DNA of 64,000 bases from Albugo candida (GCA_040437565.1 JBDOQK010000053.1:186001-250000), one strand, 5' to 3'. Positions 22,290 to 47,851 are shown, counted from the stretch's first letter. Program-made: numbers and translations. The notes: generated by a model from the letters alone, not told the origin.

Positions 22290-23636
22290 AATCAGACTCG
22301 ATGCAGCTGTTCAAAATTCTTGCATTTATCGAATGAGATGCATCAACAAATTCTGACAGCGCGTGGAATGGTAAAGGATGCTTCAGCGTAACACGTCAGT
22401 GAATCGCCGTCAATTAGGGCTCATCGAGCACCCTATTGCTTCTTCTAACTTCTTTCGGAACGCATATTGTTAACTAATAAGCGCATTAAATATATCATTA
22501 CAGTAATGTGTCATAAATTGCATTAATGTCCTACATAATGTCTTCATTTCTACTCAACAGACGATTCCTTCATAAAGATTCCATTGTCTGGTCATTTTCT
22601 ATCAACTCAATCTTGAATTGGTCAATTCCCATCTAATTTTGCTGATTTATATCCTGGCTTTATCACGACACTAGGAATTACTATAGGAATTGGCGACGAC
22701 GATTTTTCTTGCTAAGAGACTCAACATGATGCTGTTCTTTTTCTTCTCTCGTATTCTTTCGTCTTCGATGCTTAATCCTCGGACTGCTTTGGTTCTCACT
22801 ATCCAATTAACCAACGATGAACACCAGACAANNNNNNNNNNNNNNNNNNNNNNNNNNNNNNNNNNNNNNNNNNNNNNNNNNNNNNNNNNNNNNNNNNNNN
22901 NNNNNNNNNNNNNNNNNNNNNNNNNNNNNNNATTCTAGTATTACCTAGTACTAGCTGTTCAGCGTAATGTGGTGGACATGAATGTGAAGAATACTGTACT
23001 TCATGACATTATCCATTAATTAGAAGCTGGACATTGTCTCTTACTACGTATTTGATCGACACATCGACAGACTTTTGAAACAAGCTTTTATATGTAATCT
23101 ATTAACAAAGCTCGGAACTCGTTCATCGAAAGAATCTTGCGTTTGTAGCCAAAATGTTTCAATATATTGCAAAAAAGTACAATAGCTGCGCTTCTTGAGA
23201 ATAGAATAGCGTTAATTGTTTGCAGCTACCGATTGTCTTACTTGCCGCTACACTCTTCCGATGCTTATTTTGCACATTCTTCAATGTGCTTTACGCCGAT
23301 CTCAAAAAGCTTAAGCGCTTGCGAAAACTGCCAAAAACACATTCTGAATCCGCAATCGTTAAATTTTATGTCTTTATGTGTCCTTGAGCATCGCTATTGT
23401 CAGATAGAGATCTGCTACGGGAACGAATGCATTCGATCAGGTCCAAGATGAAGCTCCAAAATTAAGACCTTGAAAAGCATACATAATGAGTTTATCATTG
23501 CTAGTTTTTAAAGTGTCTACTGAATGACCCCTATCAGTATGTTTCAATCAGCGAAATAGGTGATGTGAAGTACAGAACTAGTAGAGCTCATTTATACTGG
23601 GTCGATGACTTGCTAGATCACCACTTCAGCACCATC
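22290..23636 (+). repeat. Copy A of a diverged direct segmental duplication (partner ~34725-37233); interrupted by a gap
   Basis: Collinear similarity, e.g. ctcaatcttgaattggtc, ggtggacatgaatgtgaagaatactgtacttc, gatctcaaaaagcttaagcgcttgcgaaaactgccaaaa and caccacttcagcaccatc occur in both. Confidence 0.85.
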
Positions 23637-23977
23637 TTACAAGACCTTTTTCAATTGACAGGTTGAGTAATACTAGGATCTTATCGTATTTCGTGACATT
23701 CATAGCATATAGGCAAACATTAGACTAGGTGTGCCAGAATAATTGTGAATTTTTTTGTGTTTTCGTTTCTTTTCTTTTTCTAAAAAGCAAACTGCAATTT
23801 CGCGGGTACTTACTTCTACTTCATATTGAATACAGAAGAGATATAGTCGAAACGCAGCATCTCAACCGCGTTATTCGTACATACTCCTGGAAAGCGTACT
23901 TTACCAAGTACGTAGATGCGATGGCCGTTGGAAACAGGAGGTACGAGCATGCTGTTACATACTTGCACTAGATACTA

Positions 23978-24234
23978 TGTTAGAACATGCGTAGTGCTTA
24001 GCAGGTGACAAATTGAATACTTAAAATATAATTAGGTCCTTGGTACGCAAACTCTCTTGTTACTCTAAGCCTACTGCTTTCTTCGACTATACCTTGATAA
24101 ATTTCCATACCGCGCATCACTAATCGTATAGTCGCGCATTAGAAATCGCCTGGCCGCGCGTCATTAATCCTGCGCCGTTACCAACATGGATCGTGCGATG
24201 GTGTCACTTGACAACAACACATCCTTCTTCAACA
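23978..24234 (-). mobile_element. Copia-family LTR (LTR1)
   Basis: TG...CA termini (TGTTAGAAC...CTTCAACA); ~90% identical by eye to the LTR at 33971-34225, which adjoins gag. Confidence 0.88.
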
Positions 24235-24256
24235 ATTAGATCGTGAATGTTGCTCT

Positions 24257-25629
24257 TTCGCTTGAGACACATTTGAGAATCGGCTGAGACATTTATTTTA
24301 AAAATTTTTGAGCGTTAAAAATCACCTGGCAGATTTGATAAAATACGACTATCGCGGAGTGGTTTGGAAGTAACGTGGCCATTGAAAGTAGAAAATACAA
24401 AATCTGATCCGTCATGAGGAGACAAAGTGCACAAAGACGTTCTTTTACACATATACGCTCCGGCTTCATTGCTTGATATGCGCCTCTATAACCCTTAGAT
24501 CATCCATGTTCGAAATACGCACGAAGCACGATCCGAGAAGCCAACGGTACGTATGAATGAGAAACGCAATTTTTATCTGTTGACTTTGAATCAATCGACC
24601 GGAAGCGCATACAGCACCATGAAAGCTTTACAAATACAAAAATATGGTGCTGGTATGCTTGGAGTATTTCTAGCGTATTACCGTTTCGTGGGCGCACAAT
24701 ACATGAAGTTGCAGCATCAAACACCTGATGGATCAAATACGATAGGAGGATTAAGGGTCAAGATATATCTCCTACGAGAACGCGGCTCGGATGCACATCC
24801 TATTACCGACAATGACCTCTATTTGTTAACTTTTCCCATTGAGGAGGACGATCCAAATGGAGTTGAAGCTTTCAATGAAATCAAGGGTGATATGCCAATT
24901 GATAAGGTCAAGTTACAAGATAATTCACCCGGAAAACCGGCTTATCCCACGGCAATCATTCCCAATTTATACGCCAAGTTCGATCGAGACGAACGCAAAC
25001 AGCCTGAGAAACAAAAACACGGCCGCACTTTCTTGACGGAACTCAATGAACTTCGAGCTCCGAGCAAAATGGAAGTGGAAGTAAAAGTATTGAGAAGTTA
25101 CACGCGTACCATCAAGAAGAATAGTTATACGTGTGGCTGGGTGCTGCGAGGGTGTTCGTTGAAATTCTTATCCTTGCAAACTACGCTTTACGAAGATGAG
25201 AGCTTGATCACCATGAATCCTCAAGTGTACATCTCGAGTAACAGCGGGATATATTCATTTGATATGAAGATGGTTCCACAACTTTATTTGTATCAAATGA
25301 ATTTTCCAGGCAAAAGACAATTTACACCTGAGATGGATTTGTCGAGTGTAGAAATGAACTTCATCGGCGAAAAGAGACATCGTTATAAGGTTGAATTTCG
25401 GCCCGATAACTTAATGACGACAATTCCGGAAAGCTTATTTGACACGTTAAGAGAAAGTTTGATTCGCATGGACTTCTATTGGGAAAGTAATCGCTACCAA
25501 CGGCCATGCCAGCAATTGGAGTACGAAAAAGTCGTCGAATTTATCAAGAAGAACAAGCGCATCTCCGGTCTACCCCCACTCGACCTTATGTATGGAAACG
25601 AGCAAGTGTTGACTATCAAAGCCAATAAA
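24257..25629 (+). repeat. Duplicate of 25730-27102 abutting a gap (includes truncated copy of the pepsin-like ORF, 24553-25629); probable assembly overlap
   Basis: Offset 1473 nt, no differences seen, ends at the N-gap 25630-25729. Confidence 0.85.
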
Positions 25630-26091
25630 NNNNNNNNNNNNNNNNNNNNNNNNNNNNNNNNNNNNNNNNNNNNNNNNNNNNNNNNNNNNNNNNNNNNNNN
25701 NNNNNNNNNNNNNNNNNNNNNNNNNNNNNTTCGCTTGAGACACATTTGAGAATCGGCTGAGACATTTATTTTAAAAATTTTTGAGCGTTAAAAATCACCT
25801 GGCAGATTTGATAAAATACGACTATCGCGGAGTGGTTTGGAAGTAACGTGGCCATTGAAAGTAGAAAATACAAAATCTGATCCGTCATGAGGAGACAAAG
25901 TGCACAAAGACGTTCTTTTACACATATACGCTCCGGCTTCATTGCTTGATATGCGCCTCTATAACCCTTAGATCATCCATGTTCGAAATACGCACGAAGC
26001 ACGATCCGAGAAGCCAACGGTACGTATGAATGAGAAACGCAATTTTTATCTGTTGACTTTGAATCAATCGACCGGAAGCGCATACAGCACC

Positions 26092-27270
26092 ATGAAAGCT
26101 TTACAAATACAAAAATATGGTGCTGGTATGCTTGGAGTATTTCTAGCGTATTACCGTTTCGTGGGCGCACAATACATGAAGTTGCAGCATCAAACACCTG
26201 ATGGATCAAATACGATAGGAGGATTAAGGGTCAAGATATATCTCCTACGAGAACGCGGCTCGGATGCACATCCTATTACCGACAATGACCTCTATTTGTT
26301 AACTTTTCCCATTGAGGAGGACGATCCAAATGGAGTTGAAGCTTTCAATGAAATCAAGGGTGATATGCCAATTGATAAGGTCAAGTTACAAGATAATTCA
26401 CCCGGAAAACCGGCTTATCCCACGGCAATCATTCCCAATTTATACGCCAAGTTCGATCGAGACGAACGCAAACAGCCTGAGAAACAAAAACACGGCCGCA
26501 CTTTCTTGACGGAACTCAATGAACTTCGAGCTCCGAGCAAAATGGAAGTGGAAGTAAAAGTATTGAGAAGTTACACGCGTACCATCAAGAAGAATAGTTA
26601 TACGTGTGGCTGGGTGCTGCGAGGGTGTTCGTTGAAATTCTTATCCTTGCAAACTACGCTTTACGAAGATGAGAGCTTGATCACCATGAATCCTCAAGTG
26701 TACATCTCGAGTAACAGCGGGATATATTCATTTGATATGAAGATGGTTCCACAACTTTATTTGTATCAAATGAATTTTCCAGGCAAAAGACAATTTACAC
26801 CTGAGATGGATTTGTCGAGTGTAGAAATGAACTTCATCGGCGAAAAGAGACATCGTTATAAGGTTGAATTTCGGCCCGATAACTTAATGACGACAATTCC
26901 GGAAAGCTTATTTGACACGTTAAGAGAAAGTTTGATTCGCATGGACTTCTATTGGGAAAGTAATCGCTACCAACGGCCATGCCAGCAATTGGAGTACGAA
27001 AAAGTCGTCGAATTTATCAAGAAGAACAAGCGCATCTCCGGTCTACCCCCACTCGACCTTATGTATGGAAACGAGCAAGTGTTGACTATCAAAGCCAATA
27101 AATACGTGAGGTTTATCTCAGAAAACGATCACACCATCTGTGCTCTGAATTTTATTCCGAATTCAGAAAAGAAGTTGGTGTTGGGATCTTCATTTCTATA
27201 TGCTTATTCTATCATCATCCAAAATGCTGATGGTACGAAATTTTATAAATTCTCTGATGCCGATGTATAG
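26092..27270 (+). CDS. Putatively secreted pepsin-like (A1) fold protein lacking catalytic D[TS]G motifs
   Basis: C-terminal half follows the A1 C-lobe pattern: MTTIPESLFDTL..YQRPC..LPPLDLMYG..LTIKANKYV..CALNF..LVLGSSFLYAYSII. No DTG/DSG anywhere. Weak signal peptide from Met at 26092 (frame opens at 26026). Confidence 0.65.
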   Translation: MKALQIQKYGAGMLGVFLAYYRFVGAQYMKLQHQTPDGSNTIGGLRVKIYLLRERGSDAHPITDNDLYLLTFPIEEDDPNGVEAFNEIKGDMPIDKVKLQDNSPGKPAYPTAIIPNLYAKFDRDERKQPEKQKHGRTFLTELNELRAPSKMEVEVKVLRSYTRTIKKNSYTCGWVLRGCSLKFLSLQTTLYEDESLITMNPQVYISSNSGIYSFDMKMVPQLYLYQMNFPGKRQFTPEMDLSSVEMNFIGEKRHRYKVEFRPDNLMTTIPESLFDTLRESLIRMDFYWESNRYQRPCQQLEYEKVVEFIKKNKRISGLPPLDLMYGNEQVLTIKANKYVRFISENDHTICALNFIPNSEKKLVLGSSFLYAYSIIIQNADGTKFYKFSDADV

Positions 27271-27329
27271 GTGCTAATGACGGGAAAGCATCCCAACACA
27301 TCCTCAAGGATCTGTGGTGAATTACTCTT

Positions 27330-29074
27330 TCACGAAAAAGATAAAAAGCAATATACACTGCACGACTGATTTTGGGGCCTATTTGTGTAGTCTGATTTCT
27401 CCATGGCCATAATAAGCCTTGACGCACTATTACTCTCGATCCCTGAGGAGGAACGGAACGCATCCGTTGACGTGAGTGCAGTCTTGTACAAATGGTTAGT
27501 GCCCAATGCGATCGAAGTAGCTGCTTCCTTGGCAAAGTATGAATCGAGAATCTTTCCCATCAGAAAGACGGCAAAAGTTCATTGTTTTACTTTTTTCCGA
27601 AGGTGAAAAACGAAGACGCAATCACCAATATATATTAATAGAAGTAAGTTTCATAAATTGCTGGTTCATTGTTGCTCTTTGATGTCGTTGGTGTCAGCTT
27701 GCAATTTGATTTCATCGTGATTCTGTACTGCGAATTGCAACACTTTGTGCGGTGTCACCTACAAAGCCTTCGCATGAGTCTATTGAGCTGGATGACGAGG
27801 AGGAAGATGAAAAATGGCGGCGCTGTGACTCAATCAACTGATGAAACTTCGTACGATAAGTAAGCGACTTTATCCAACCTCCTAGTGGTCTCAGCATCTT
27901 GTCCTATCAACAGCTAATTATTCATAAGTGCTCATAATCGATAGTGACGTTTTACTCGTAGCTTGCGTCTACCATTGTAGCGATATCGGTAAAATCTGAG
28001 GAAGAAGACACTTCTCATCCCAAGTTCGGGTTTTAATAGAGATCAGAGCAGCATTTGGGCTTTACTTTGCTTGTTGCTGCCAGTGTACGTTCACGCTTAT
28101 AAACCTGCCCGTGAGATTCTACTATGAATTGCGCCAAGTCCGACCATGCTCCGGTATGTGTGCGCCATAAGGTCGATCCACGGTGATACGTATGTGGTTC
28201 GATGAAGCATCTGATGATTGGATGATCTGTTGATAATCGACTATTCTCCTCTAGGGTACGCTCTGTCTCTGCTTCGGTTAGAAAAGAGTCTGAAATATAA
28301 CGTTGATGCCTGAACGGACTGTAGCATCACTGGCCTATACATTGGTAAAGATTTCGATACCTTCAAGTTGTTTGGTCGACCCGAGAGTACTTGTATTGGT
28401 AATCAGATAAGAAACGATAGGGGGAGTCAATTCACTTGATCGTAATAAATCTCAATCACCATATAGATCACAAGGAAAATACCAGCATCATGCCTAGCAT
28501 GATTTCCGCATTTGATTGTTTTGATCGATACACCGCAGCCAAGAAAGATTAAGTACCCATTGTCGATTGTGTGATTTCGGCTGGATAAGCTTGTATGAAA
28601 CAGAGCGATGACTTTTAGATTGGCAATATTTCATGCACTGAGGTCGTTTGCACAGATCATTCCAATGAATCGATGGCATTTCTTCGATGACTTCGATGTT
28701 GCTTAAATATGTTCAGATACATTCGACGACATTATTCCGATCAGAAATGGTCGAAATCGGGGATTTCTCAGCACCATATGAAAAGAAAAAAATTCAAAAA
28801 CATACTGCATCGCATTATCTGCGCAGTCACCTGCTCGATACATTACACAAAGTGATGCACGTAATACATTTGCAATCCTACTCATCTCAGAAAAGCTCAT
28901 CATAGGAGCTGCTACATCTGCCTTCCCACCTTGCGCCTTCCATAGTGATTCCTGACTGTGATGTTCATTCGCAAGATTCCTGTTATTGTCATACCTCTGT
29001 TTCGAAATGTTTGCTGGCTCAACTCTGTGAGCAGAACATAGCTCAATATCCTCCTTTGTTTTTGGTTGTATCAT
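27330..29074 (-). pseudogene. Possible decayed protein-coding sequence of unknown family
   Basis: Several protein-like minus-strand stretches (28703-29074, ~28050-28330, 27330-27560) broken by stops; no recognisable domain. Confidence 0.25.
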
Positions 29075-30932
29075 TTTGACTTTATAAAATCATATTCAAT
29101 TTCATCAAGATCCACAAGTCGGCATATATATCAAAAAATTATCAATGCGGTTTCTTCAATATGCCAGCCACCATCATAATTACGCACTAGAATTCAATTC
29201 ATTGATTTTGATTGAAGCAGCCATTTGTTCGAAATCATTGTCCGCTTGACGACTGATTGCCTAGTCGATATCTGATACCTGGCCCTTATAAAATTATGCC
29301 TCTATTTTCGATAAGTTTGATTTGCATCCAAGATACTTGAGTGAAGGAAAACTTACTTGGTAATCCTTACAATACGCTTCCTAACCAAGCTTTATTCTCT
29401 TTTCCGTGCTACCTCTTCCGACATAATGCTATCAGTCATTCAAGTTTTTGCTTGTATCGGGAATGTTACGTCGTTGATAAGAGCCCAACACGAAGATTAC
29501 GCTGTCTGCTCACTGTTTCATGTATTCCACACCAAACGTATAAACATGGAGACTATGAGGAAAATGTGAATCCGAATTGAATCAACATTTGATCGCTTTA
29601 GAAAATTGTTTGCAGTCCAATGAGTTGGAATGCGATCTGGAATTCACGAATAAGGAAGAAAATCACATCACATGAGCGTAAAATCAACAAACTGATCCGA
29701 AGCTGTGCTGATGCCACACTGAGATGCGAAGAACACTGCAAGGAAAATAATATTATAAGGGGATCGGAATCACTCAAGAATACGTTGTTCGCAGCAGAAG
29801 ATACGGCCATTGAATTTAGTCTTTTCGAGGTGACTCACCTTGCTATGGTAAGCTCTTCATGGAATATCGTTTGAAGTCGAATGCAGTCAAGCAAAAGGAT
29901 ACAAAGAAAAAGCTCCTACATGTGCAAGCCCCGAAAAACGAAGAATTAATCAGTGAAGTGTCCCCATTTGTACAGAATTTCTGCTGACGAAGGAAGAGTA
30001 GTATAGATAGTTCCGAGGATCCAATTAGATTCTTGGCCTTATTGCATCGAACTCGGCAAGTAATGTCGGATGAAATCCAATGCGTGACAAATGTGAGTAA
30101 ATTGATGAATTTTATGGACGTGAAGCACTAGCAAGCTCGCTTCAAGAGCAGTAGCGTTAAAAAATGAAATCTAAGCAATTTAAAGACAGCTCAAGCATCT
30201 ACAGGTGATCTTTCTTTGATTGTATGCAGTCGAGCATATCATAACAGTATATCTAATGCCAAACCAAGAAAGACGACTGTGGGTTGGGTCGGGGGTACTC
30301 GCTCTCTTGGCCACATTGATATTTATCATAAATCAGCGTACGGGCATTCCAGTAATATCGGAATTGTTCCAACAATGATACCAGTGATTCACTGTAACCA
30401 CGCCGGCCATTTTTACTGAGGCTTTCGTCCTCTGATCATGAATTGTGGAAATAACCCGAAAAACGTTATAATTGCATTGGCCATAAACGTACGGATACAC
30501 ATCTCTTTGTTGGCACGAAATGATAGAAGTGTAGTGCTTAGCAGGTGGCAAATGGAATACTATTTACACTTAGGTCCTTAGTTCGCAAAATCTCTTGCAA
30601 CTCTAAGCCTACTGACTTCTTTAACTACACGTTACATCTCGCATTACTGATCCTATAGTTGCGCGCTAGAAATCGCCAGTCCGCGCGTCAGTAATCCTGT
30701 GTCGTAACCAACATGCATTGTGCGATAGTGTAACTTGANNNNNNNNNNNNNNNNNNNNNNNNNNNNNNNNNNNNNNNNNNNNNNNNNNNNNNNNNNNNNN
30801 NNNNNNNNNNNNNNNNNNNNNNNNNNNNNNNNNNNNNNGTCCTCTGATCATGAATTGTGGAAATAACCCGAAAAACGTTATAATTGCATTGGCCATAAAC
30901 GTACGGATACACATCTCTTTGTTGGCACGAAA

Positions 30933-31173
30933 TGATAGAAGTGTAGTGCTTAGCAGGTGGCAAATGGAATACTATTTACACTTAGGTCCTTAGTTCGCAA
31001 AATCTCTTGCAACTCTAAGCCTACTGACTTCTTTAACTACACGTTACATCTCGCATTACTGATCCTATAGTTGCGCGCTAGAAGTCGCCAGTCCGCGCGT
31101 CAGTAATCCTGTGTCGTAACCAACATGCATTGTGCGATAGTGTAACTTGACAACAACACACCCTTCTTCAACA
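30933..31173 (-). mobile_element. More diverged LTR of the same Copia family (LTR2); partial duplicate at 30521-30738 is a gap overlap
   Basis: TGATAGAA...CTTCAACA; shares ttaggtccttagttcgcaaa, ctctaagcctactg and cttgacaacaacac with LTR1/LTR3 but has internal deletions. Confidence 0.85.
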
Positions 31174-31395
31174 CGATCGCATCATCGGCACCTTAGCTAG
31201 TGTAGACTCACTAGAGGTCGCAGCTTGGCAAGCTTGTGGTTGTCTACTGCTTAGGTCAATAATTTTACCGGAATATATAAATATTTTTTTTTTTTNNNNN
31301 NNNNNNNNNNNNNNNNNNNNNNNNNNNNNNNNNNNNNNNNNNNNNNNNNNNNNNNNNNNNNNNNNNNNNNNNNNNNNNNNNNNNNNNNNNNNNNN

Positions 31396-34225
31396 ACGTC
31401 ACCTTGAGCATCACATTTCTACCCTTAAGCTTGAGAATGTGTTGGAGCTGTCCCTTCTGCACGCTGGAAAGCGTCAGGATATTCCTCACATGTTGTGTAA
31501 CACGACGACGTTGTCTTCACGAATATAAACACGGTGTCATCTGATCTCGTCGCTGCGCCTGACAATTGTGCACGCCTGCGCCCGATGTGCTAGCGATCTC
31601 TTCTTTGGATCGCGATACAAGGTACGCGTTGATCCAAATATAACGATGTCGCATAGCTCGGGAGCTTGCTTTGTCAATACTTCAATTGGCGATGCAGATT
31701 GGGATTGACGCTTGCAGAGATGCGATTAAACCGCGTCATTCCAGAGAGACAGCGAGTGGCTGCTTGCGAATATCATATATCATGACTTACAAAGTAAATC
31801 CACATTGTTGTATTATCCACCACCGTCAGTTCGTAATCCTGGGCCCAGCAATTGAAACTCTTCTCAAAGAACATTCAGAAAATGCTCAAAATTCTTCGCC
31901 ACTTGATCCTTGATGCGTGCGAGAAATAAGCGGCAGTAATTGTTCTTGTGGTCCACGAAGTTGACGAGATACCGATTTTACATTAGATCCTTTGTTGTAA
32001 TGGTTACTTTGAGGCCTAAGAGATAACACTACCAACACGGTCAATCGGCGAATGCACGCCTGTGTCCTTCTTGGACTGCGCGCTCTTTCACTTCTTTGCT
32101 TTCGCGCATGTGAGACACGTCATTCACTCATGATCAGTAAGCCGGATTCCAGATCTAGGCTCACGTCCCATTCTATCAATAGTGTCGTAGGATAGATGGC
32201 CAAAACGGTGGTGAAAGTGCCCGAGCGTTCCTGAATGCACACCTTCATCAACTTCCTGGCTTTTGCTTCATCAATCGCGACAATGAACGTCTTCAATATC
32301 CCTTCGTCAACTCTTCCTTCTTGCGTCTCGATGACGAGCACGTTGTTGCACATCCCTACGTCAAACACGACGGATCCGGTATTGAGGGAGATAAGGGCTC
32401 GCCTGTGATTCTTATACTTGAGACCGTAACCTTTAAGCTCAAGCTTACCGTACGACACGATATTGGGCGTTGGCAGCGGTGCGTAGTAGACTTCTGTAAG
32501 TCAGATAATACTTGCTTTTCCGCATGCCATCACGTGAATCACCACATTTACGACCATCGTACGACGAAGCGTTTTTCCGTTGGCGACCAGGCATTTATCA
32601 TCACATTCTATTGCATCTTCGAAAAGCGCCTCATCATTGACGAGATGCCTGCTAGATCCACAAGCTGTCCTGGTCCTTGGTATCTTGTATGGACAAACTT
32701 TAGTTAACAATGTCCTATGTCCTGATATTGTTCATATAAGTACCCTTGACGCCATTGTTTCTCTTCGCCTTATCCTTTCGTCAGGACAGACCGACTGGAT
32801 GTGCCCGACTTTGCCACACCTAAGACACGTGCGCGTATCAACGGCGTGGCATGCTTTCAGCAACGTGTGTTACGACGTCATTGCCAAGGGAGGAAGTACT
32901 TCGCGTATCCAACTCGACCGACTGTGCGAAATTTGCAAGCTCTTTAGCTTGAGCAAGATAGTCGGGACGAGTCCCGTTGTAATTGGCCATTAGAACCGTC
33001 TGAAGCTCAGTCGACGCATAGTGCATAATGTTCTCTAGCACTCGCGTCAGCGCCGCCACATGCATCGCTCACCGCCACCAAGTAAAGGTAAGTTTCATCC
33101 AGGTTCTCTTTGGATCCTCCTTCGCTGTAAAAAGCTTCATCGACCGCGATGCTGTGATACTTGTCTTGAATGTCTGAGGAAGACGCTCCCTAACGTGAGC
33201 AAGCGTTGGTGCTTGATACCACCATGTCTCGACCTTCTTGTTGTAGTAGCGCTCGGCCGTGCCGCTAGGGTAGTTGCCAAGCAGGTCAGTCTTTAGATAT
33301 TCGGACCAGTCGAAACCACATGCCACTTGAGCGTACTGGACCTGACACATGAATGTCCTTCCCCAATCCAGAAAACCGGAGCCTATGCCTCGATACAGCT
33401 CGGAGCCATCGAATTTCCGGATAGTCAATCTTCTTTGAAGCTCGTCCGGGACTCTCATTGCTTACCGTGCGTCTGTCTTCATCCGCCGCTCATAATCCCG
33501 CGACTCCGCGAAAACCATGTCTGAATATGGAACGCATACCAGTGGCGCTGCTTGCGGTTCCCGCCATCCTGACTGCGCCGCGTTCCGGGCAGCTCCTTGT
33601 TGGGATAGACTTGTACGGCCCTGCCCAGTTCTTGGACGCATCGGCGAGTTCCCTAGTGCGTCGATGTGTATCGGTGTACCGATGCGACCATTGGCAAATG
33701 TAGAGCGGAACATCCCCTGCTAAATCGCATCCATCATGCGGTCTTCTTCATCGCGCTTCAGCTGTAAGACCTCTACCTGTACCATTCGCGCTTGCAGGTC
33801 GACGATAGTCGCTAGTGTTTGAGCGTTGACGTCATTCGCCCCTTTCGTGGGTCGTCGATACGCCTTGAGCCACTGCAGGAGACCCTTCGGTGCTTCCGTG
33901 ACCGTCGCCAAATCTGACTGGGGTTGGTGCGTTTAGCGTGCTTTCAGAAACAATTGTTTGGCTATCAACCTGTAGAGCGTGCGCAGTGCTCAGCAGGTGA
34001 CAAACTGAATACTAAAAATATAATTAGGTCCTTAGTTCGCAAACTCTCTTGTTACTCTAAGCCTACTGGTTTCTTCGACTATACCTTGATAGTTTCCATA
34101 CCGCGCATCACTAATCGTATAGTCGCGCAGTAGATATCGCCTGTCCGTGCGTCAGTAATCCTGCGCCGTAACCAACATGAATGGTGCGATGGCGTCACTT
34201 GACAACAACACATCCTTCTTCATCA
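31396..34225 (-). mobile_element. Degenerate Ty1/Copia retrotransposon: 5' LTR (33971-34225), gag, protease, integrase; RT/RNase H not visible
   Basis: gag LTIRKFDGSELYRGIGSGFLDWGRTF..GFDWSE..GTAERYY; protease remnant GSSRHLVNDEALFEDA; VMSYGKLE; integrase CLTCAK..QSKKDTG..SPIDRVG..NRYLVNFVDHKNNYCRLFLA; PIEVLT..IVIFGS..YRDPKK; RVYI..TQHVRNI. Many stops and frameshifts. Confidence 0.9.
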
Positions 34226-34724
34226 TACTAAGCATCCATTCGAACACTCTGACTTAGATCGACTCGAAAGGAATATATGATCGAATGTGGATTACGAAGG
34301 GAGGGCATAGTGATACATTAAAGCTATTCCAGCACGCTACAAGTACCTTAGTCTCACTCGGATAAGTGTGTGGAAGAATATCTGTCGCGCTTGGTCAGGA
34401 TGACGGAGTTGCTCGCGGACATGGATCGTAGAAAAGAATCAAACTGCCTAATTCCAAAGGAAAGGTGTTTAGCGTGCAGTGTGGGCTTCGTCATGGCGCT
34501 TGACGTATGGTAAATCCTATTGTCTGGGTCCGTCTCAAAGAGACAAGAGGTAGACTGCAGTGCGGATCATGTCTACTGGTGAAGAAACAGAACACAAAGC
34601 CTCAGTCAAGAGTGTGAAGCGGCTCTACATGAGAACGCAGATGGTTCCTGGAGCATAGAGCTGTACCATCGAAGTGTGTACGAGCTTCTCTCTTTGTCTG
34701 CACAGAGTTTGTGGTAGCGAGAAA

Positions 34725-37233
34725 TCAGATCGATGCAGCTGATTGAAATGCTTGCGCTCAGCGAATGAGACGCATCAAGAAATTCTGAGAGCGTGGAATC
34801 ACAAATGATGCTTCACCGTTATACGTCAGTGATGACAGTCAAATAGGGCACGAGCAAGCACACCATTGCTTTTTCGAACTTCTTTAGAGACGCACTTGAT
34901 CCAGTATTTTTAACTAGTAACAAGCATTGAACACATCATTCCCGTAATGTGTCACAAAGTGCATCAAAATTCTAATAATGCACTGCCTTCCTTTCGATTC
35001 AATAAACGATTCATTCACGATGTTTCCATTATCTGGTCAATTTCTGTCAACTCAATCTTGAATTGGTCCATTCCCATTTTATTTTTTCTAATATATATCC
35101 GTTGAGGGCAAGGGGCTTCATCACGATATGGAACTACTATAGGAATCGGAGACGACGAATTTCTTGCTATGCGACTCAATATAATGCTGTTCTTTACCTT
35201 CTATGCTCAATCCTATGACTGCTTTCATTCTCACTATTCAATTTACTTATGATGAACACCCGACAAGCAACAACAAACTCGAGACTAACCCGCCAACATG
35301 AACCGCGTTGATGGTGGCTATGTTCCAATTCAGGAGCAGCCACACCAGCGAGCCCGGCCAGCAACCTCAGCAAACTCAGCGACCGTCAGCACCGAGCTCC
35401 AAAGACTCCACAAAGAGAATGAGTCGCTCAAGAGAGAGATTGGTCATCTCAGGGCTTCGAAGGCTCACTCAGAGTCAGCATTTACGCACCAGAATGATGC
35501 GCTAGTCGAGCTAACAGAAATGAATCAAATGTTGAAACTGCGACTTCAGCAGCAAGCTACCGAGGTGGCTGACCAAAAGGACTGCATTGATAAGCTTTAC
35601 TCGCAACTAAGAATGACTCAATCAGAATTAGAGGACCGAAAATTCAATCTAACAAAAGTTCAAACCGAGCATCAGTACGCAGTACGACTACTTGGTGAAT
35701 ATCATCAACAATCATAGCAAGTCCCAGCCAACAGTAATATCGTTTCAAAGCGTCCTGATACCCAAACTGATGATGAAACTTCACCAAATTTTTTTAAAAA
35801 GCTTGATAAAGCACTCAGACTCGAAAATGACGAGTTGCATCGCAAAGTCGATGAATTGCGCGCAACAGTTGAGCACTTGCAGCATCAGATACAGCAACTT
35901 CAGCAACTTCTGGTATCGAAAAAACAAACAATTAATGTAGGAAGTGAGAATAGCTAATATTCTTTTTAATTAGGTAAGATCTCTTTTTCTGATTTGATTA
36001 CCAAAAAAATATCGTCGTGTTTCCATGTTGTTGCATTCTCTCCGTCATAATAGACAGTAGGCGCCGGTTGATACCGGTAAGAAGAGTGCGTGTGCACCAG
36101 TATTTCCTAGCATTACCTAGTACTAGCTTTACAGGGTAGTGTGGTGGACATGAATGTGAAGAATACTGTACTTCTTCACAGTATCCACTAATTACAAGCT
36201 GGACATTGCCGTCTATTGCGTGCATGATGAACCGATAGAGAGACTTTGTTTTTTTTATATGTGATCTATTAGCAAAGTTAGGAACTCGTTCATCGAATTA
36301 ATCTTGCGCTTGTAGCCATAACGTTTTGATATCTTGCAAAAGCAGTCTAATAGCGGCGCGAATTGAGAATAGAATAGTGTTATTATTGCAGCTACCGATT
36401 GTCCTACTTGCCGCTNNNNNNNNNNNNNNNNNNNNNNNNNNNNNNNNNNNNNNNNNNNNNNNNNNNNNNNNNNNNNNNNNNNNNNNNNNNNNNNNNNNNN
36501 NNNNNNNNNNNNNNNTTGCAGCTACCGATTGTCCTACTTGCCGCTACAATCTTCCGAAGCTTATTTTGCGCATTGCTTCAATGTACTCACCGCCGATCTC
36601 AAAAAGCTTAAGCGCTTGCGAAAACTGCCAAAAATACATTCTGAATCCGCAATCGTTAAATTTTATGTCTCTATGTGTCCTTGAGCATCTCTATGGTCTA
36701 TGCTGACGACAGCTTCCTCTTAATCGAATCCTACCAGTACGCAGATGATGAATTTAGTCAACCTTGTGCTCGAACGTAGATGCCTAATTGTTTTTCACAT
36801 CTTCTGGCTGGGATACACATATTCATTCACAGTGAAGCATTATGAACGCTCAGGATGGACAAAAATTGCAAAATTTGCTACAATTAAACCGCTTCGCTAT
36901 CCTGTAAAACCAGTATCTAAATACTCACTTTGTTTATCATTTTTCTACATTGATGTAGCGTGCAGTTATCATCATGCGGACTTGCAGAGATCTGTTACGG
37001 GAACGAATGCATGCGATCGAGTCCAAGATGACGCTCCAAATCAAGACCTTAGAACGCATTTATAATCAGTTTATTGTTTCTAGTTTTCAAAGTTTATACT
37101 GAATGAGTAGGTAAATATGAATGATGTGCGCCCCCTACAGCATGTTGATTAAGTGAAATAAGTGATGTGAATTACTAGTAGAGCTCATTTGTGCTGGGCC
37201 CACAAGTTGCTAAATCACCACTTCAGCACCATC
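34725..37233 (+). repeat. Copy A' of the diverged segmental duplication (partner 22290-23636)
   Basis: Collinear with copy A; includes the 35298 ORF (where copy A has its gap) and ~290 nt extra near 36700-36985. Confidence 0.85.
35298..35957 (+). CDS. Coiled-coil protein with one internal in-frame TAG (35715-35717): pseudogene, null allele or readthrough
   Basis: 139 aa heptad-rich ORF; the same frame continues 79 codons (…LRLENDELHRKVDELRATVEHLQHQIQQLQQLL…) to TAA at 35955-35957. Confidence 0.55.
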
Positions 37234-37559: not shown

Positions 37560-40030
37560 TGATTAATCGATACCGAATTTACTCCGTGGTCCGAATTGAG
37601 TGTATATTGGCACTCGAAGGAAAGACCGTCACAGCCTTGAACCATAAATCAGCGAAAGAAATATCCTTCGGTGAGAATGTCCACAGGATACTAAACAACA
37701 CCGTCGCAAATTTCGTAGGGTAAGATACTGGCACTGATATCAGGATTTCTAGACGTCGCCACATAAGATGTAGTTAGCTCGCTGGGATCACCCATGCAGA
37801 CATGAAATTGCGATAGCGATTCAGGCGATTTCTCACGAAATGCAAGCAGAATGTAGACATGTATAGGTCCGGAAACGTGTTCATGCGGAATTACTAACTC
37901 TGTGCTCTCAAACTGATGGAACGTTGGCAAGGAGAAGACTCCTTCCAGTTCAGCGCATGCAGAATCCATTCCGCGCAATTGTCCAATAAGGAAGTCTATC
38001 AGATCCATATTTTACAGTCACGCCATAGATATCTCAGACGCGTACGCACATCTATGACGTCCGCTTCGCTTGATATATATTTGAGTCGAAGAGTTGAGTA
38101 TCTCACTGACGATAAGCGCGCACAAAGTGGTTCTTGCATGATCGTCCTTTCGTCTTTTTCTACTCGGTTCCCTTCATCAGATAGCGCCGATACGTGAAGA
38201 GCTTATCTGTGTATCGAATAAATTGTGCCGAGTGCTCTTGTCGAAGTCGAGGCTTCACATCCCGAAGTCTCAGCGCAATCTCCTTCTTCATGCTTGCCTT
38301 CCTCGCATATAGCTACTGCCATAGCTACCGCGTCTTTTTCTCGAATTCTATCCATACTTGACGCGATACAAGCAGTGTGTTACTTTTCATGGTTGATGAT
38401 GGTGATTATCACTTTTGGGTATAATCGCATGACTATACTTGAAATTGATGCATCGTCATTACAATTGACTTTAAAAGGACTCTTTTCTTGCATTGGGGAT
38501 TTTCAAGTTGTATAACGCCGAGTGTGATGGCCAATTGAGTTTTCTCACATTCCATTCCACCAATTCAATCTTACTTCTCCATTCGGAATTCGCAGTACCC
38601 CGCTGGCTACCAGGAGCTTGGCCGGGATTGAATAAGTTGGGACACATTTTGGTGCAAAGGCACTTTTATTGTGGTTCAAAACGATACGAAGATACAGCTT
38701 CCGATATGTCTTAATCTACTAAGCAGCAAATCTACTCCGGCCCTCAACACAATCATGTGTGTGTCTAATCCAAGTCTATGTACATGTTAAAAGAACCAAC
38801 TTGGCTCGACCTACTTGCGCAATGTCGATTTGGTGAACGGCTTGTCAACTATTGGACTAAGACACGATGCCTTAACCATGAGGACTATGCCGTTGATATT
38901 TCTCGAGTTTATGACACATAATAAGAGTTTGAAGATATGCAATCGCATGTATATTTTCAAATTTGGCATAGACGTCGAGTGATTTTTGCTATCCTGTTGT
39001 CCGATTAGATTTGGAGCTTGAAAACTTCTTTGCAGTTCCTGGTTCTGCATAACATTCTCGTTTTCAATCACATAGCCTCCTTCTCCTGACAACAATTCGG
39101 ATATCACAAGAATGAGTGCCAGCTTCTGGACTAGATGATATCGAATCTTCTGGCTGCACCTTCGAGATGTAGTGCTACCACTTCATTTGACTTGTTTCTG
39201 CAAATAAACACATGCTCGATATACGTGTTTGAACGTCTGAAGGCATCCATCACCCTCACATTCTCTTGTAGAATTCCATCCACTTATACGGTTTGTTATC
39301 CATCGTCATGGTCCAGCAAGACTATTTTTTCTATGAAGACTATTCTAGGACGTCGTCGCCTCGGGCGTCATTCCCACTGACGATGAATTCCTTATATTCA
39401 GCTTTTGTAATGTTTGAGTTCGTTTTTTCTGTATTTATTTTCAAAGCTGCACGATACAAAGGATGTTTCACGCTTGGACTGCTGCNNNNNNNNNNNNNNN
39501 NNNNNNNNNNNNNNNNNNNNNNNNNNNNNNNNNNNNNNNNNNNNNNNNNNNNNNNNNNNNNNNNNNNNNNNNNNNNNNNNNNNNNCTGCATAACATTCTC
39601 GTTTTCAATCACATAGCCTCCTTCTCCTGACAACAATTCGGATATCACAAGAATGAGTGCCAGCTTCTGGACTAGATGATATCGAATCTTCTGGCTGCAC
39701 CTTCGAGATGTAGTGCTACCACTTCATTTGACTTGTTTCTGCAAATAAACACATGCTCGATATACGTGTTTGAACGTCTGAAGGCATCCATCACCCTCAC
39801 ATTCTCTTGTAGAATTCCATCCACTTATACGGTTTGTTATCCATCGTCATGGTCCAGCAAGACTATTTTTTCTATGAAGACTATTCTAGGACGTCGTCGC
39901 CTCGGGCGTCATTCCCACTGACGATGAATTCCTTATATTCAGCTTTTGTAATGTTTGAGTTCGTTTTTTCTGTATTTATTTTCAAAGCTGCACGATACAA
40001 AGGATGTTTCACGCTTGGACTGCTGCGCTT
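37560..40030 (-). pseudogene. Possible decayed coding sequence of unknown family
   Basis: Protein-like minus-strand fragments (37691-38008, ~38160-38310, 38811-39107, ~39880-40030) interrupted by stops and frameshifts. Confidence 0.22.
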
Positions 40031-41421: not shown

Positions 41422-42372
41422 ATGGGAACGCGACAGCTATTTTGGTCATTTCTTTCGCCTATGCGGCTAGTCGCATGGATTTGGTTTGGACGGTATTTCG
41501 CTGTCTGTCTAATATATCACACGTACAAAATCGATATTGGATACCCGAGTAGCTCTCTTGTCTCGTGCTATGAGAAGATTATCGAACTGGGTGTGAAAAG
41601 GCTTAATCCGAGCATTGTTCGTGGCAAGAATGCGATAATAATCATTGTAACAGATGGAATACTGCTAGAAGCGACGTTGCAGGAAGCACTCGGAAATGCT
41701 TGCGAGCTGAACTCATTTGAAGTGCAAAACGCAATCCAAAGTGACTTTCTTCCGCGCGAAGTTGGCACGTCAGATGAATCTTCCCTCTTGCCAGATGATG
41801 TCATCCTGGTCACCTTTTCACCCACAGAACACATAGGGGCAAAGTGCAAAGAGTGTTACTCACGCGAAGGTCTCAGGCTTTTTGATTCGACACTTGTGAC
41901 CATTGCTTCTACCGTACTTTCTCCAATAAAAGATAGTAGAGAGTATTACAACTTGAAGGAGCTTTCGGAAACAAAGGAGAAGTGCTCGCACTGCATCTCA
42001 TGGAAGGTCAGACCAGCCAGGATTTTTCCAAACCTTTTGGACTTAAGCAACAACGATATCACCTATGAGACATTTTATTCGGTCGAAACAAGTAAAATTG
42101 GCATTATTGAACACAACGGGATGAAAAACTGTGTTCAATGTCTCTTTTCTTATTGCGAGATTTTTTATGCCGAGCCCGCATATAATAAGATATGGACCAC
42201 TAACGTGAGTCCAAATTCGTTTCGATGCAGCTTTTTATGTGACAAAGACCTAGTCATCAATGATGTACAAGCAGCTTACCTCCCGCCAAGACCAATGAAA
42301 TTCTCTGAATATGATTTCAGATTCATTTTGATAGAGAAATCCAGTAAGAAGGCACGTGTAAAGCTCATTTGA
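41422..42372 (+). CDS. Cysteine-patterned, putatively secreted CCG-like effector candidate
   Basis: Intronless 316 aa ORF in a gene desert; hydrophobic N-terminus (MRLVAWIWFGRYFAVCLIY); degenerate CYEKIIELG, then CKECYSREG, CSHC and CVQCL modules. Confidence 0.6.
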   Translation: MGTRQLFWSFLSPMRLVAWIWFGRYFAVCLIYHTYKIDIGYPSSSLVSCYEKIIELGVKRLNPSIVRGKNAIIIIVTDGILLEATLQEALGNACELNSFEVQNAIQSDFLPREVGTSDESSLLPDDVILVTFSPTEHIGAKCKECYSREGLRLFDSTLVTIASTVLSPIKDSREYYNLKELSETKEKCSHCISWKVRPARIFPNLLDLSNNDITYETFYSVETSKIGIIEHNGMKNCVQCLFSYCEIFYAEPAYNKIWTTNVSPNSFRCSFLCDKDLVINDVQAAYLPPRPMKFSEYDFRFILIEKSSKKARVKLI

Positions 42373-46386: not shown

Positions 46387-47851
46387 TTACATATATTTTT
46401 TGATGCGTAAGCAGTGCATCGACTCAGCATTACGTAGAGCAGCTTCGAGCTCGTTCTGGAGCTTCACAAGCATAGTATAATCGCACTGGTAATTGTCGGC
46501 CTTACACGAAGCGCTATCCATTAAACTAGTGCTCGTACTGGGAAGATTAAAATTGATAGGTTGGTCTTTTCCCCCTGGTAGTTTAGTGGTTGTTCGTAAC
46601 GTCAGTATTGGTCTCATTTGACGCCGCATAAATCGAGTCTCTATTTGAAGATCAAGACGCCACTGAAAGCCAACAAATCGAGGTATTTGTAACCTCAACG
46701 GTCGGCTGGCCACATTGCGTATTTTTTTATGGTAATCTGCATAAACCTTAGGAAAGCAGCATTATGATTGATATCGTCGGTACTGCCCACAGCCGTTTCT
46801 GGTACCTGTTTCAACAAGCGTAGATTTGCTTCATTCAAACCACTTCCGCGGACTGATGCGATAAATTGTCTCTCAGATAAGTTAGACTGTGTAGAAAGAT
46901 TAAGATAATGCAACTGTGATTCACATAGATTTTACAGATGCATGAGTACCTTGCTTGTCTCTACAAGAACTTTGGCCAATGTTATCGTAGCTACTTCGAT
47001 CTGTGATTCTTCCCACCCATATCTTTCTAATTCAGAATATTCTNNNNNNNNNNNNNNNNNNNNNNNNNNNNNNNNNNNNNNNNNNNNNNNNNNNNNNNNN
47101 NNNNNNNNNNNNNNNNNNNNNNNNNNNNNNNNNNNNNNNNNNNGTTTAGTGGTTGTTCGTAACGTCAGTATTGGTCTCATTTGACGCCGCATAAATCGAG
47201 TCTCTATTTCAAGATCAAGACGCCACTGAAAGCCAACAAATCGAGGTATTTGTAACCTCAACGGTCGGCTGACCACTTTGCGTATTTTTTTATGGTAATC
47301 TGCATAAACCTTAGGAAAGCAGCATTATGATAGATATCGTCGGTACTGCCCACAGCCGTTTCTGGTACCTGTTTCAACAAGCGTAGATTTGCTTGATTCA
47401 AACCACTTCCGCGGACTGATGCGATAAATTGTCTCTCAGATAAGTTAGACTGTGTAGAAAGATTAAGATAATGCAACTGTGATTCACATAGATTTATGAG
47501 TACCTTGCTTGTCTCTACAAGAACTTTGGCCAATGTTATCGTAGCTACTTCGATCTGTGAATCTTCCCACCCATATCTTTCTAATTCAGAATATTCTTAT
47601 CATGTACATCACTTTTATAATAATGCTTCAACACACTAGTGATTCTGTCAAATCGAGCCTTGTCTTCATGCGTGCCCTCGGTCAGCTTATGCGTAGCCAT
47701 TGTGATCAGAGCGAGCACATCTTTTGGGCATATATAACATTAATAAATTATATCTAATGTGGACTTGAGATCACTTGCCTTCCTGATCCAACGTGTCTAA
47801 TGATTTCATCTGCTTGATAATCTCTTGATTCCATGCTGTTATGATACACAT
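46387..47851 (-). CDS. COMMD2: COMM domain-containing protein 2, multi-exon; middle duplicated across the gap as two variant copies
   Basis: IPRFVGFQWRLDLQIETRFMRRQMRP..QCDYTMLVKLQNELEAAL..HCLRIKKYM matches the COMMD2 C-terminus; exons reconstructed from ATG 47851 with short introns. Confidence 0.8.

What the first reader, a model, noticed from the sequence alone, without database searches (positions are those of the whole stretch)
23973..34230. Copia-LTR-bounded segment with a matching 5-bp TSD carries an intact non-TE gene in place of RT/RNase H
Seen: TACTA (23973-23977) lies directly before the TG of LTR1, and TACTA (34226-34230) lies directly after the CA of LTR3. LTR1 and LTR3 are co-oriented and resemble each other (~90% by eye) more than either resembles the internal LTR2. 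Gag, protease and integrase follow LTR3. Where RT/RNase H should be there is instead ~5 kb (after removing overlap artefacts) containing the intact pepsin-like ORF, decayed ORFs and LTR2. Known: Copia insertions make 5-bp TSDs. Inference: a single element that captured or acquired a candidate secreted-protein gene, a possible route for effector mobilisation. Removing the element leaves duplicates A and A' as a simple tandem pair. Caveats: the segment spans three gaps, and a 5-bp AT-rich match can arise by chance.
Basis: partly seen in the sequence, partly recalled or inferred. Interest (0 to 1): 0.8.

Follow-up and report, generated by a model that had tools for sequence, protein, structure and literature searches.

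The report
Dead Copia element enclosing orphan gene
In a draft scaffold of the white-rust pathogen Albugo candida, two matching repeat ends of an old, dead Copia retrotransposon enclose about 5 kb of non-transposon DNA with one intact orphan gene, but an unresolved assembly gap hides part of the element, so it is not shown that the gene replaced the reverse transcriptase or was ever moved.

Summary
The described sequence is there. TACTA lies at 23973-23977 and 34226-34230. Three co-oriented LTRs exist: LTR1/LTR3 are 92.2% identical and LTR2 is 84% identical to each. Decayed gag-protease-integrase lies on the minus strand next to LTR3. An intact 392-codon ORF has one relative, a 98% identical Albugo candida protein. 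Two of the three internal gaps are unmerged contig overlaps.

A 5-of-5 flank match has a chance of about 0.0012 per comparison, about 0.007 over six possible pairings. LTR1 and LTR3 are therefore probably the ends of one old Copia integration.

"In place of RT/RNase H" is not shown. Reads and a contig from other runs continue at least 238 bp beyond the contig edge at 31396, into the gap where RT should begin. LTR2 then sits where a normal 3' LTR would be.

The gene is single-copy in the protein database, with no donor paralogue. The block is held by 19 of 24 listed runs. The element has at least 13 stop codons and 3 frame changes. "Pepsin-like" rests on sub-threshold evidence, and no D[TS]G motif is present.

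Verdict: an old composite Copia locus in a gene-sparse island. Gene mobilisation is possible (about 0.2) but unsupported. Long-read alignment would settle it. Interest is modest.

The parts
22290..23636 (+). Duplicate A, the left paralogue of A'
   Evidence: BLAST self-hits at 77-93% identity to 34723-37233
23973..23977 (.). TACTA, left copy of the candidate 5-bp target-site duplication
23978..24234 (-). LTR1 (257 bp, TG...CA). In the element's sense it would be the 3' LTR
   Evidence: Alignment. 92.2% identical to LTR3
24235..24618 (+). 384 bp between LTR1 and the ORF start. No similarity to the inner flank of LTR2
   Evidence: local score 9 against a shuffle mean of 9.5
24619..25629 (+). First, cut copy of the ORF (aa 1-337), at the end of the left contig. 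It duplicates 26092-27102 as an assembly overlap
25630..25729 (.). Gap 1 (100 N) between overlapping contig ends. Its true size is negative
   Evidence: 24257-25629 = 25730-27102, 100% identical
26092..27270 (+). Intact 392-codon ORF plus TAG. An orphan, possibly a catalytically dead pepsin-like protein
   Evidence: 1 homologue, 98% identical, A. candida. 7 of 392 residues differ. Pfam Asp E 0.075, below the cut-off. The ten best atlas hits with a family are all pepsin/TAXi, top score 0.84. No D[TS]G
27271..30520 (.). 3.25 kb with only short broken ORFs and no recognised domain
   Evidence: 46 ORF pieces against Pfam: none at or above its family's gathering cut-off (max_evalue 0.5; best E 0.0026). 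tblastn with Copia proteins gives noise only. The 124-aa ORF piece (28703-29074, minus strand) has no relatives among longer proteins
30521..30738 (-). First 218 bp of LTR2 at the end of the middle contig. An assembly duplicate of 30933-31150
30739..30838 (.). Gap 2 (100 N) between overlapping contig ends
   Evidence: 312 bp overlap, 99.7% identical
30933..31173 (-). LTR2 (241 bp), an older or other-subfamily LTR. Flanks are CGAAA / CGATC
   Evidence: Its right edge at 31173 is a repeat boundary in reads of other runs
31174..31295 (-). 122 bp ending in a T run (an A run in the element's sense). Present at normal depth in X24
31296..31395 (.). Gap 3 (100 N). It hides at least 238 bp that continue the Copia side, and the join is unverified
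   Evidence: loose ends before 31396 (19 reads of X24, and one X19 contig with 238 nt)
31396..33970 (-). Decayed Ty1/copia gag, CCHC knuckle, protease and integrase, equivalent to aa 140-817 of a 1385-aa polyprotein
   Evidence: Weak colinear Pfam hits: zf-CCHC, gag_pre-integrs, SH3_retrovirus
33971..34225 (-). LTR3 (255 bp), the 5' LTR, next to a possible primer-binding site
   Evidence: The junction with the right flank is spanned by contigs of X2 and X15 (34100-34589)
34226..34230 (.). TACTA, right copy of the candidate target-site duplication
34723..37233 (+). Duplicate A', which holds a 142-aa coiled-coil-like ORF at 35289-35717

Best explanation
LTR1 and LTR3 are the two LTRs of one ancient Ty1/copia integration into the spacer between the paralogous blocks A and A' of an Albugo candida gene-sparse island. 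The integration made the TACTA duplication.

The element is long dead. Its interior is composite:
- the 5' half of Copia (gag, protease, integrase);
- an unresolved assembly gap that hides more Copia sequence, possibly the whole RT/RNase H;
- an older LTR of a related subfamily (LTR2), lying where a normal 3' LTR would lie;
- a 4.8-kb non-transposon block with one intact, single-copy, species-restricted ORF in antisense orientation.

The gene is a resident of this old composite, not the cargo of a currently mobile element. How the block came to lie inside the LTR pair is inferred, not shown. It either came in one step, by reverse transcription of a read-through RNA, or later, by recombination or repair at the DNA level.
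For: Shown:
- A perfect 5-bp flank match, with chance 0.00124 per comparison.
- LTR1/LTR3 are 92.2% identical, against 84% for LTR2 with either.
- Differences between LTR1 and LTR3 are spread over both lineages (6 and 9, LTR2 as outgroup) and over the whole length. There is no sign of a chimeric LTR.
- All three LTRs begin with TG and end with CA.
- Copia proteins align colinearly through the integrase, with 13 stops and 3 frame changes, as expected for an element about 8% diverged.
- The LTR3-TACTA-flank junction is spanned by contigs of two other runs and covered by raw reads of a third.
- The non-Copia block is held by 19 of 24 listed runs at 0.71-0.96 of sampled words.
- The three left contigs overlap by 1373 and 312 identical or near-identical bases, so their order is sound.
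- Copia is the commonest LTR class in A. candida, 5.6% of one assembly (passages of PMC13585763).

From established knowledge: Ty1/copia integrases make 5-bp duplications.
Against: - The join across gap 3 is unverified, and hidden sequence of at least 238 bp lies there.
- With RT/RNase H hidden in the gap, LTR3...LTR2 would have the size and layout of a normal element. LTR1 could then be an unrelated solo LTR.
- LTR1 is linked to the block by a single contig of an assembly that left 6 of its 13 gaps between unmerged overlaps. I did not lay reads on that junction.
- No polypurine tract is evident next to LTR1 or LTR2, and the candidate primer-binding site next to LTR3 was not matched to any tRNA.
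- The inner flank of LTR1 shows no remnant of Copia.
- No other copies of the LTR family could be compared, because no whole genome is held.
Confidence: 0.5

Rival explanations
1. Gene carried in by retrotransposition; this is the first reader's idea in a form that fits the anatomy. A Copia transcript read through its own 3' LTR (LTR2) into 4.8 kb of downstream host DNA and ended in the next co-oriented LTR. That RNA was reverse-transcribed and integrated as one composite, giving identical outer LTRs and the TACTA duplication. The gene, antisense and with its own upstream region, moved as a passenger.
For: - The layout is what read-through predicts: 5' LTR, gag-pol, a complete internal LTR, a genomic block, then the outer LTR.
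- The flank match and the sister LTRs fit.
- The antisense orientation and the 384 bp of upstream DNA fit a genomic block rather than a cDNA.
- LTR retrotransposons with acquired gene fragments are documented in maize: 425 intact elements and at least 189 captures (passages of PMC2774510).
Against: - No donor or second copy: 1 hit among 1433 candidates, a same-length protein at 98% identity that fits an orthologue from another isolate.
- LTR2 should share its U5 part with the outer LTRs, if the source element was young. Instead the third of the LTR nearest the primer-binding side is the most diverged: 20 of 83 and 23 of 83 against 11 of 85 for LTR1/LTR3.
- No polypurine tract is seen next to LTR1.
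- An internal LTR would tend to end transcripts.
- Captured pieces in plants are fragments, not whole genes with 3 kb of extra DNA.
Confidence: 0.2
2. Independent insertions with a chance flank match. LTR3-gag-pol(gap)-LTR2 is one old Copia element, or a truncated one beside a solo LTR2. LTR1 is an unrelated solo LTR of the same family. The block between them is ordinary host DNA that was always there.
For: - With about 1.6 kb of RT/RNase H hidden in gap 3, LTR3...LTR2 would be about 4.9 kb, a canonical Copia. This follows from the P0054 mapping, where aa 817 lies at 31498.
- The contig break lies exactly where the conserved RT should start, and reads run on into the gap.
- The flanks of LTR2, CGAAA / CGATC, share 3 of 5 bases, as an old solo LTR might.
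- The gene is single-copy and held by 19 of the 24 listed runs.
- The locus lies in a gene-sparse stretch with local duplications.
Against: - The 5-of-5 match has P about 0.0012 per pairing, about 0.007 for six pairings.
- LTR1 as a solo LTR has flanks TACTA / ATTAG, no duplication of its own.
- If LTR2 and LTR3 were sisters they should be closer to each other than LTR3 is to LTR1. The reverse holds: K2P 0.18 against 0.083.
- The LTR2/LTR3 outer flanks, CGAAA and TACTA, do not match.
Confidence: 0.2
3. Assembly artefact. The true locus is a plain Copia element (LTR1-RNase H-RT-integrase-protease-gag-LTR3) between A and A'. The block with the gene and LTR2 belongs next to another LTR copy elsewhere. 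It was threaded in through a chimeric contig at LTR1 and a wrong scaffold join at gap 3.
For: - 6 of the 13 gaps in the window lie between unmerged overlapping contig ends, so the assembly is rough.
- Gap 3 is an unverified join with hidden sequence.
- Only one contig links LTR1 to the block.
- The flank match would then simply mark a normal element.
Against: - The three left contigs overlap by 1373 and 312 bases.
- Raw-read depth over LTR2 and LTR3 in X24 is near the single-copy level. At 95% likeness the copies are distinguishable, and a chimera through a 257-bp LTR is less likely.
- Differences between LTR1 and LTR3 are evenly spread, without a switch point.
Confidence: 0.1

Closest known systems
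Ty1/copia LTR retrotransposons of oomycetes
   Same: - TG...CA LTRs of about 250 bp and a 5-bp flank duplication.
- Order gag, CCHC knuckle, protease, integrase.
- 44-68% protein identity to a Peronospora destructor Copia fragment, and colinear alignment to a 1385-aa polyprotein.
   Different: - RT/RNase H is not in the assembled sequence.
- A third LTR and 4.8 kb of non-transposon DNA lie between the outer LTRs.
- All reading frames are broken.
LTR retrotransposons with acquired host gene fragments (maize Bs1 and the B73 survey, PMC2774510, passages seen)
   Same: Host-like DNA lies between the two LTRs of an element that has a target-site duplication.
   Different: - The maize cases are gene fragments, often amplified with the element.
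- Here there is a whole intact ORF with flanking DNA and an internal LTR, in a single copy, with no donor known and no second copy of the composite.
3' transduction by transcriptional read-through (known for L1 elements; recalled, not from a call)
   Same: Downstream genomic DNA would be carried along because the element's own termination signal was passed.
   Different: For an LTR element a second downstream LTR is needed to supply U3-R. No source locus has been found, and the divergence pattern of LTR2 does not fit a young source.
Solo LTRs and recombinant elements from unequal recombination between LTR retrotransposons (recalled from the plant literature, not from a call)
   Same: Several co-oriented LTRs of one family lie within 10 kb. 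LTR2 has imperfect flanks, as an old solo LTR would.
   Different: Recombinant elements are recognised by flanks that do not match. Here the outer flanks match perfectly.
Pepsin-like (peptidase A1) proteins and their inactive relatives such as TAXI-type inhibitors
   Same: - One source names the 98% identical protein 'Peptidase A1 domain-containing protein'.
- Weak Pfam Asp match to the C-terminal lobe.
- The ten best atlas hits that carry a family all share the pepsin/TAXi family or clan; the top score is 0.84, a lead only.
   Different: - The Pfam score is below the gathering score.
- No D[TS]G catalytic motif.
- No PDB relative by sequence.
- The structure model is unusable, pLDDT 28.7.

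Membership tests
Ty1/copia LTR retrotransposon | Two direct LTRs ending in TG...CA | tested here: met
   LTR1 and LTR3 begin with TG and end with CA, and are 92.2% identical
Ty1/copia LTR retrotransposon | 5-bp target-site duplication | tested here: met
   TACTA on both outer flanks. Chance is 0.00124 per pairing
Ty1/copia LTR retrotransposon | Domain order gag-protease-integrase-RT-RNase H, with integrase before RT | tested here: inconclusive
   Gag, protease and integrase are colinear with P0054 aa 140-817. RT/RNase H is absent from the assembled window, but the gap where it should start hides at least 238 bp
Ty1/copia LTR retrotransposon | Primer-binding site after the 5' LTR and polypurine tract before the 3' LTR | tested here: inconclusive
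   An 11-nt candidate lies next to LTR3, but no tRNA gene in the window is available to match it. No purine run abuts LTR1 or LTR2
Gene-capturing LTR retrotransposon (Bs1-like) | Host-derived DNA inside one element, between its two own LTRs | tested here: inconclusive
   It holds if LTR1 and LTR3 are one integration and the scaffold is right. Gap 3 and the LTR1 junction are unverified
Gene-capturing LTR retrotransposon (Bs1-like) | A donor gene elsewhere in the genome | tested here: not met
   Only one homologue, 98% identical and of the same length, among 1433 candidates. None in metagenome contigs. The whole genome was not available, so an unannotated copy is not excluded
Gene-capturing LTR retrotransposon (Bs1-like) | Further copies of the same composite, as proof of movement | not testable with these tools
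   No genome is held.
Peptidase A1 (pepsin family) | Match to the family profile above its curated threshold | tested here: not met
   Pfam Asp: 12.9 bits against a cut-off of 19.9, E 0.075, C-terminal 65 residues only
Peptidase A1 (pepsin family) | Two catalytic Asp-Thr/Ser-Gly motifs | tested here: not met
   No D[TS]G in the 392 residues
Peptidase A1 (pepsin family) | Bilobal pepsin fold | tested here: inconclusive
   AlphaFold2 single-sequence model has pLDDT 28.7. Atlas feature hits are all pepsin/TAXi, with a top score of only 0.84

The most novel reading that the evidence does not exclude
A Copia retrotransposon of an oomycete plant pathogen moved a complete gene as a passenger. The gene carries its own upstream DNA, together with 3 kb of neighbouring DNA and an old LTR. 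It travelled either by reverse transcription of a read-through RNA that ended in a downstream LTR, or by LTR-LTR excision and re-entry. That would be a whole-gene transduction route for lineage-specific, possibly secreted proteins.
Probability: 0.2. Interest if true: 0.6.

Novelty: new member of a known kind. Interest (0 to 1): 0.3.

Why it matters
If the composite really moved as one unit, it would be a rare case of whole-gene transduction by an LTR retrotransposon. It would also be a concrete way in which lineage-specific genes of a biotrophic pathogen change place.

As the evidence stands, it is an old, dead Copia locus in a rearranged, gene-sparse stretch of a rough draft assembly. Its main practical lesson is that 100-N gaps in this scaffold hide both overlaps and real sequence. 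"Missing" retrotransposon domains next to such gaps should therefore not be read as deletions.

Tried and rejected
- Whole genome of the window: none is held. LTR family copies, a donor locus and an empty site could therefore not be searched.
- Earlier findings of this scan: nothing for this genome or for the LTR sequence.
- Cluster members of the homologue: the query could not be made because the database is switched off.
- Pfam on stop-to-stop pieces of the Copia region gave only sub-threshold hits. A first try on whole frames failed because of stop codons. tblastn with fetched polyproteins then settled the annotation.
- Pfam on 46 ORF pieces of 27100-30738: none at or above its family's gathering cut-off at max_evalue 0.5 (best E 0.0026).
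- The largest broken ORF, searched as its 124-aa piece (28703-29074, minus strand): no relatives among longer proteins.
- Metagenome contigs searched with the ORF protein: 71 pattern matches, none a relative.
- Structure of the ORF protein: pLDDT 28.7, not usable, so no fold search was run.
- PDB by sequence: one irrelevant hit at E 0.46.
- Run X19, the most divergent holder, has no contigs over LTR2 or over 33815-34930. Its depth is only about 5 and the tool warns that holes prove nothing, so this is not read as absence.
- A joint 34108->31153 in 4 reads of X24 is taken as cross-matching of LTR copies.
- Similarity between the inner flanks of LTR1 and LTR2, a shared GATCG seen by eye, is not above shuffles.
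- A paralogous empty site after A' was sought. Homology ends 109 bp after A (23636 / 37233), so the test is not possible.
- No complex prediction was attempted; nothing here claims binding.

Full report
**What the window is.** The only relative of the 392-aa ORF in a 5.8-billion-protein collection is a 392-aa protein of Albugo candida at 98% identity, named by a source 'Peptidase A1 domain-containing protein'. Seven of 392 residues differ. The window is therefore an A. candida-like scaffold. It has 13 gaps of exactly 100 N, and 6 of them lie between contig ends that overlap and were not merged. Bases 1-21 kb and 48-64 kb carry housekeeping genes (NatB subunit, adaptin, IFT52, nucleoporins, ribosomal S5 and others). 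The stretch 21-47 kb has almost no recognisable domain. No whole genome is held for the window.

**Checking the observation.**
- TACTA stands at 23973-23977, directly before a TG. It stands again at 34226-34230, directly after a CA.
- Three co-oriented LTRs are present: LTR1 23978-24234, LTR2 30933-31173 (with a partial assembly duplicate at 30521-30738) and LTR3 33971-34225.
- LTR1 and LTR3 share 235 of 255 aligned bases (92.2%, K2P 0.083). LTR2 is 84% identical to each (K2P 0.18) and lacks an 11-bp stretch.
- With LTR2 as outgroup, 6 differences fall on the LTR1 lineage, 9 on the LTR3 lineage and 9 are ambiguous. They are spread along the whole LTR.
- Two random 5-mers of this window match with P = 0.00124. 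There are six conceivable pairings of LTR flanks (three possible pairs and three solo cases), so a perfect match somewhere has a chance of about 0.007. No other pairing matches: LTR1 alone has TACTA/ATTAG, LTR2 alone has CGAAA/CGATC, and LTR2 with LTR3 has CGAAA/TACTA.

**The Copia part.**
- Pfam on single stop-to-stop pieces gave only weak hits. They are in the right order on the minus strand: zf-CCHC (E 0.0015), gag_pre-integrs (0.051) and SH3_retrovirus (0.098).
- A 126-aa piece found a Peronospora destructor protein with a Copia beta-barrel domain, P0002 (68% identity).
- A search of protein representatives with P0002 gave 1799 proteins at E <= 0.001, among them a full-length 1385-aa Copia polyprotein, P0054.
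- tblastn places P0054 aa 140-817 colinearly on 33431->31498 (sum E 2e-46) and P0002 aa 64-337 on 32842->32027 (E 4e-63).
- The four P0054 segments lie in three frames and contain 13 stop codons. The element is dead.
- Nothing in the 64-kb window matches aa 800-1385 (RT, RNase H); the best E is 3.
- The 46 ORF pieces of 27100-30738 have no Pfam match at or above a family's gathering cut-off (max_evalue 0.5; best E 0.0026).

**The gaps.** Gaps 1 and 2 are overlaps (1373 bp at 100% and 312 bp at 99.7%). The order flank-LTR1-block-LTR2-122 bp is therefore held together by sequence. After removing the duplicates the non-Copia block between LTR1 and LTR2 is 4813 bp.

Gap 3 (31296-31395) is different. 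Its left contig ends in a T run. Its right contig starts about 100 bp after the last integrase match.

I laid contigs of three runs and raw reads of a fourth on 30839-36415.
- 19 reads of X24 (median overhang 58) continue leftwards from 31396. So does one contig of X19, with a 238-nt overhang. They share the same letters, which are not the end of the left contig.
- X19 has no depth on 31211-31295. The gap thus hides at least 238 bp that continue the Copia side, at the place where RT should begin.
- From the P0054 mapping, a complete RT/RNase H needs about 1.6 kb more. With that, LTR3...LTR2 would be about 4.9 kb, a canonical Copia.
- The right edge of LTR2 (31173) is a repeat boundary: reads and contigs of X15 and X24 run on from it into several different sequences.
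- The LTR3-TACTA-flank junction is spanned by contigs of X2 and X15 (34100-34589) and covered by X24.
- I did not lay reads on the LTR1 junction.

**The gene.**
- The ORF 26092-27267 is intact and ends with TAG.
- It has one homologue only and none in metagenome contigs.
- The 5-kb middle contig is held at 0.71-0.96 of sampled words by 19 of 24 listed runs from 12 studies. This is the range expected for isolates up to about 1% apart (my inference from word share). The block is therefore widespread, and the 98% protein fits an orthologue rather than a donor paralogue.
- 'Pepsin-like' rests on three weak indications: a source's name; a sub-threshold Pfam Asp hit to the C-terminal lobe (12.9 bits against 19.9); and feature look-alikes whose ten best hits with a family all share the pepsin/TAXi family or clan, at a top score of only 0.84.
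- There is no D[TS]G motif. The N-terminal hydrophobic peak is modest, 1.6.
- The PDB search gave nothing relevant, and the single-sequence fold failed with pLDDT 28.7.
- If the protein has the pepsin fold, it is a catalytically dead form. Secretion is not shown.

**What it most likely is.** The flank match is the strongest single fact. Together with the sister relation of LTR1 and LTR3, it makes one old Copia integration between A and A' the most likely frame (about 0.5, or about 0.7 if the gene-carried-in reading below, which shares that frame, is counted). Within that frame, the position of LTR2 calls for an explanation. It is co-oriented, lies on the pol side of the block, and is preceded by 122 bp and an A run.
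- Read-through of a source element's 3' LTR into downstream DNA up to a further LTR would give this layout in one step. However, the LTR third nearest the primer-binding side is the most diverged between LTR2 and the outer LTRs (20 of 83 and 23 of 83, against 11 of 85 for LTR1/LTR3). That does not fit a young source. No donor locus is known and no polypurine tract abuts LTR1.
- Entry of the block after integration, by recombination with another element next to the block or by repair, explains the single copy but needs more steps.
- The rival without a common integration makes LTR3...LTR2 an ordinary element and LTR1 a solo LTR. It fits the geometry, but it has to accept the 0.007 coincidence, a solo LTR without its own duplication, and LTR distances that contradict LTR2 and LTR3 being sisters.
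- A misassembly through LTR1 and gap 3 cannot be excluded (about 0.1). Near single-copy read depth over LTR2 and LTR3, and the even spread of LTR1/LTR3 differences, speak against it.

**Comparison with what is known.** Copia is the commonest LTR class in A. candida, 5.6% of one assembly (passages of PMC13585763). LTR retrotransposons that hold host gene fragments are well documented in maize: 425 intact elements and at least 189 independent captures, with Bs1 as the classic case (passages of PMC2774510). Those are fragments, not whole genes. Three full-text searches returned no title or abstract describing gene carriage by an oomycete LTR retrotransposon (Albugo candida + retrotransposon + LTR; LTR retrotransposon / gene capture / oomycete; Albugo + Copia + effector). 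This is a listing-level check only. The supplements of these papers were not read.

**Verdict.** The title claim, a gene in place of RT/RNase H inside a single element, is only partly supported, and the idea of effector mobilisation is not supported by any positive evidence. The locus is best filed as an old, dead, composite Copia insertion site in a poorly assembled, gene-sparse island. Existing long-read assemblies would settle the structure in minutes.

Noticed in passing
window gaps 8620-8719, 25630-25729, 30739-30838, 39486-39585, 47044-47143, 61454-61553: 6 of the 13 100-N gaps lie between contig ends that repeat each other: 312-1373 bp, 100% or near, and 96.8% at 47044. The scaffold is inflated, and genes across such gaps appear duplicated or cut.
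   Followed up: partly
window 35914-36066: Contigs of X2 and X15 and 13 reads of X24 replace these 151 bp by 16-17 other letters. This is a structural difference or an assembly error inside A' (tables 5 and 5c).
   Followed up: no
window 35303-35488: A short stretch inside the coiled-coil-like ORF of A' has much higher depth than its neighbours: about 2400 against about 60 in X2 contigs, and about 2.5 times in X24 raw reads. It also has many variant letters. It is probably a dispersed short repeat.
   Followed up: no
window 34224: The C of the terminal CA of LTR3 reads T in the X2 contig and in 12 of 22 X24 reads, so the LTR end is polymorphic among samples.
   Followed up: no
window 31084: The single mismatch between the two assembly copies of LTR2 (G here, A at 30672) reads A in X2 and X15 contigs. 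The G is probably an assembly error or a minor allele.
   Followed up: no
window 32027-32996, minus strand: The decayed gag-protease region is up to 68% identical in protein to a Peronospora destructor Copia fragment (P0002). That is high for such distant oomycetes.
   Followed up: no
window 21000-47000: A gene-sparse stretch of about 26 kb lies between two dense runs of housekeeping genes. It holds the A/A' duplication, the Copia locus and several ORFs without any Pfam family, for example 41422-42369.
   Followed up: partly
window 31174: Contigs of X2 and X15 that cover the 122-bp stretch right of LTR2 carry 14 and 8 different letters before 31174, instead of the LTR2 end. There may be a second copy or an allele of this stretch with another left neighbour (table 7).
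   Followed up: no
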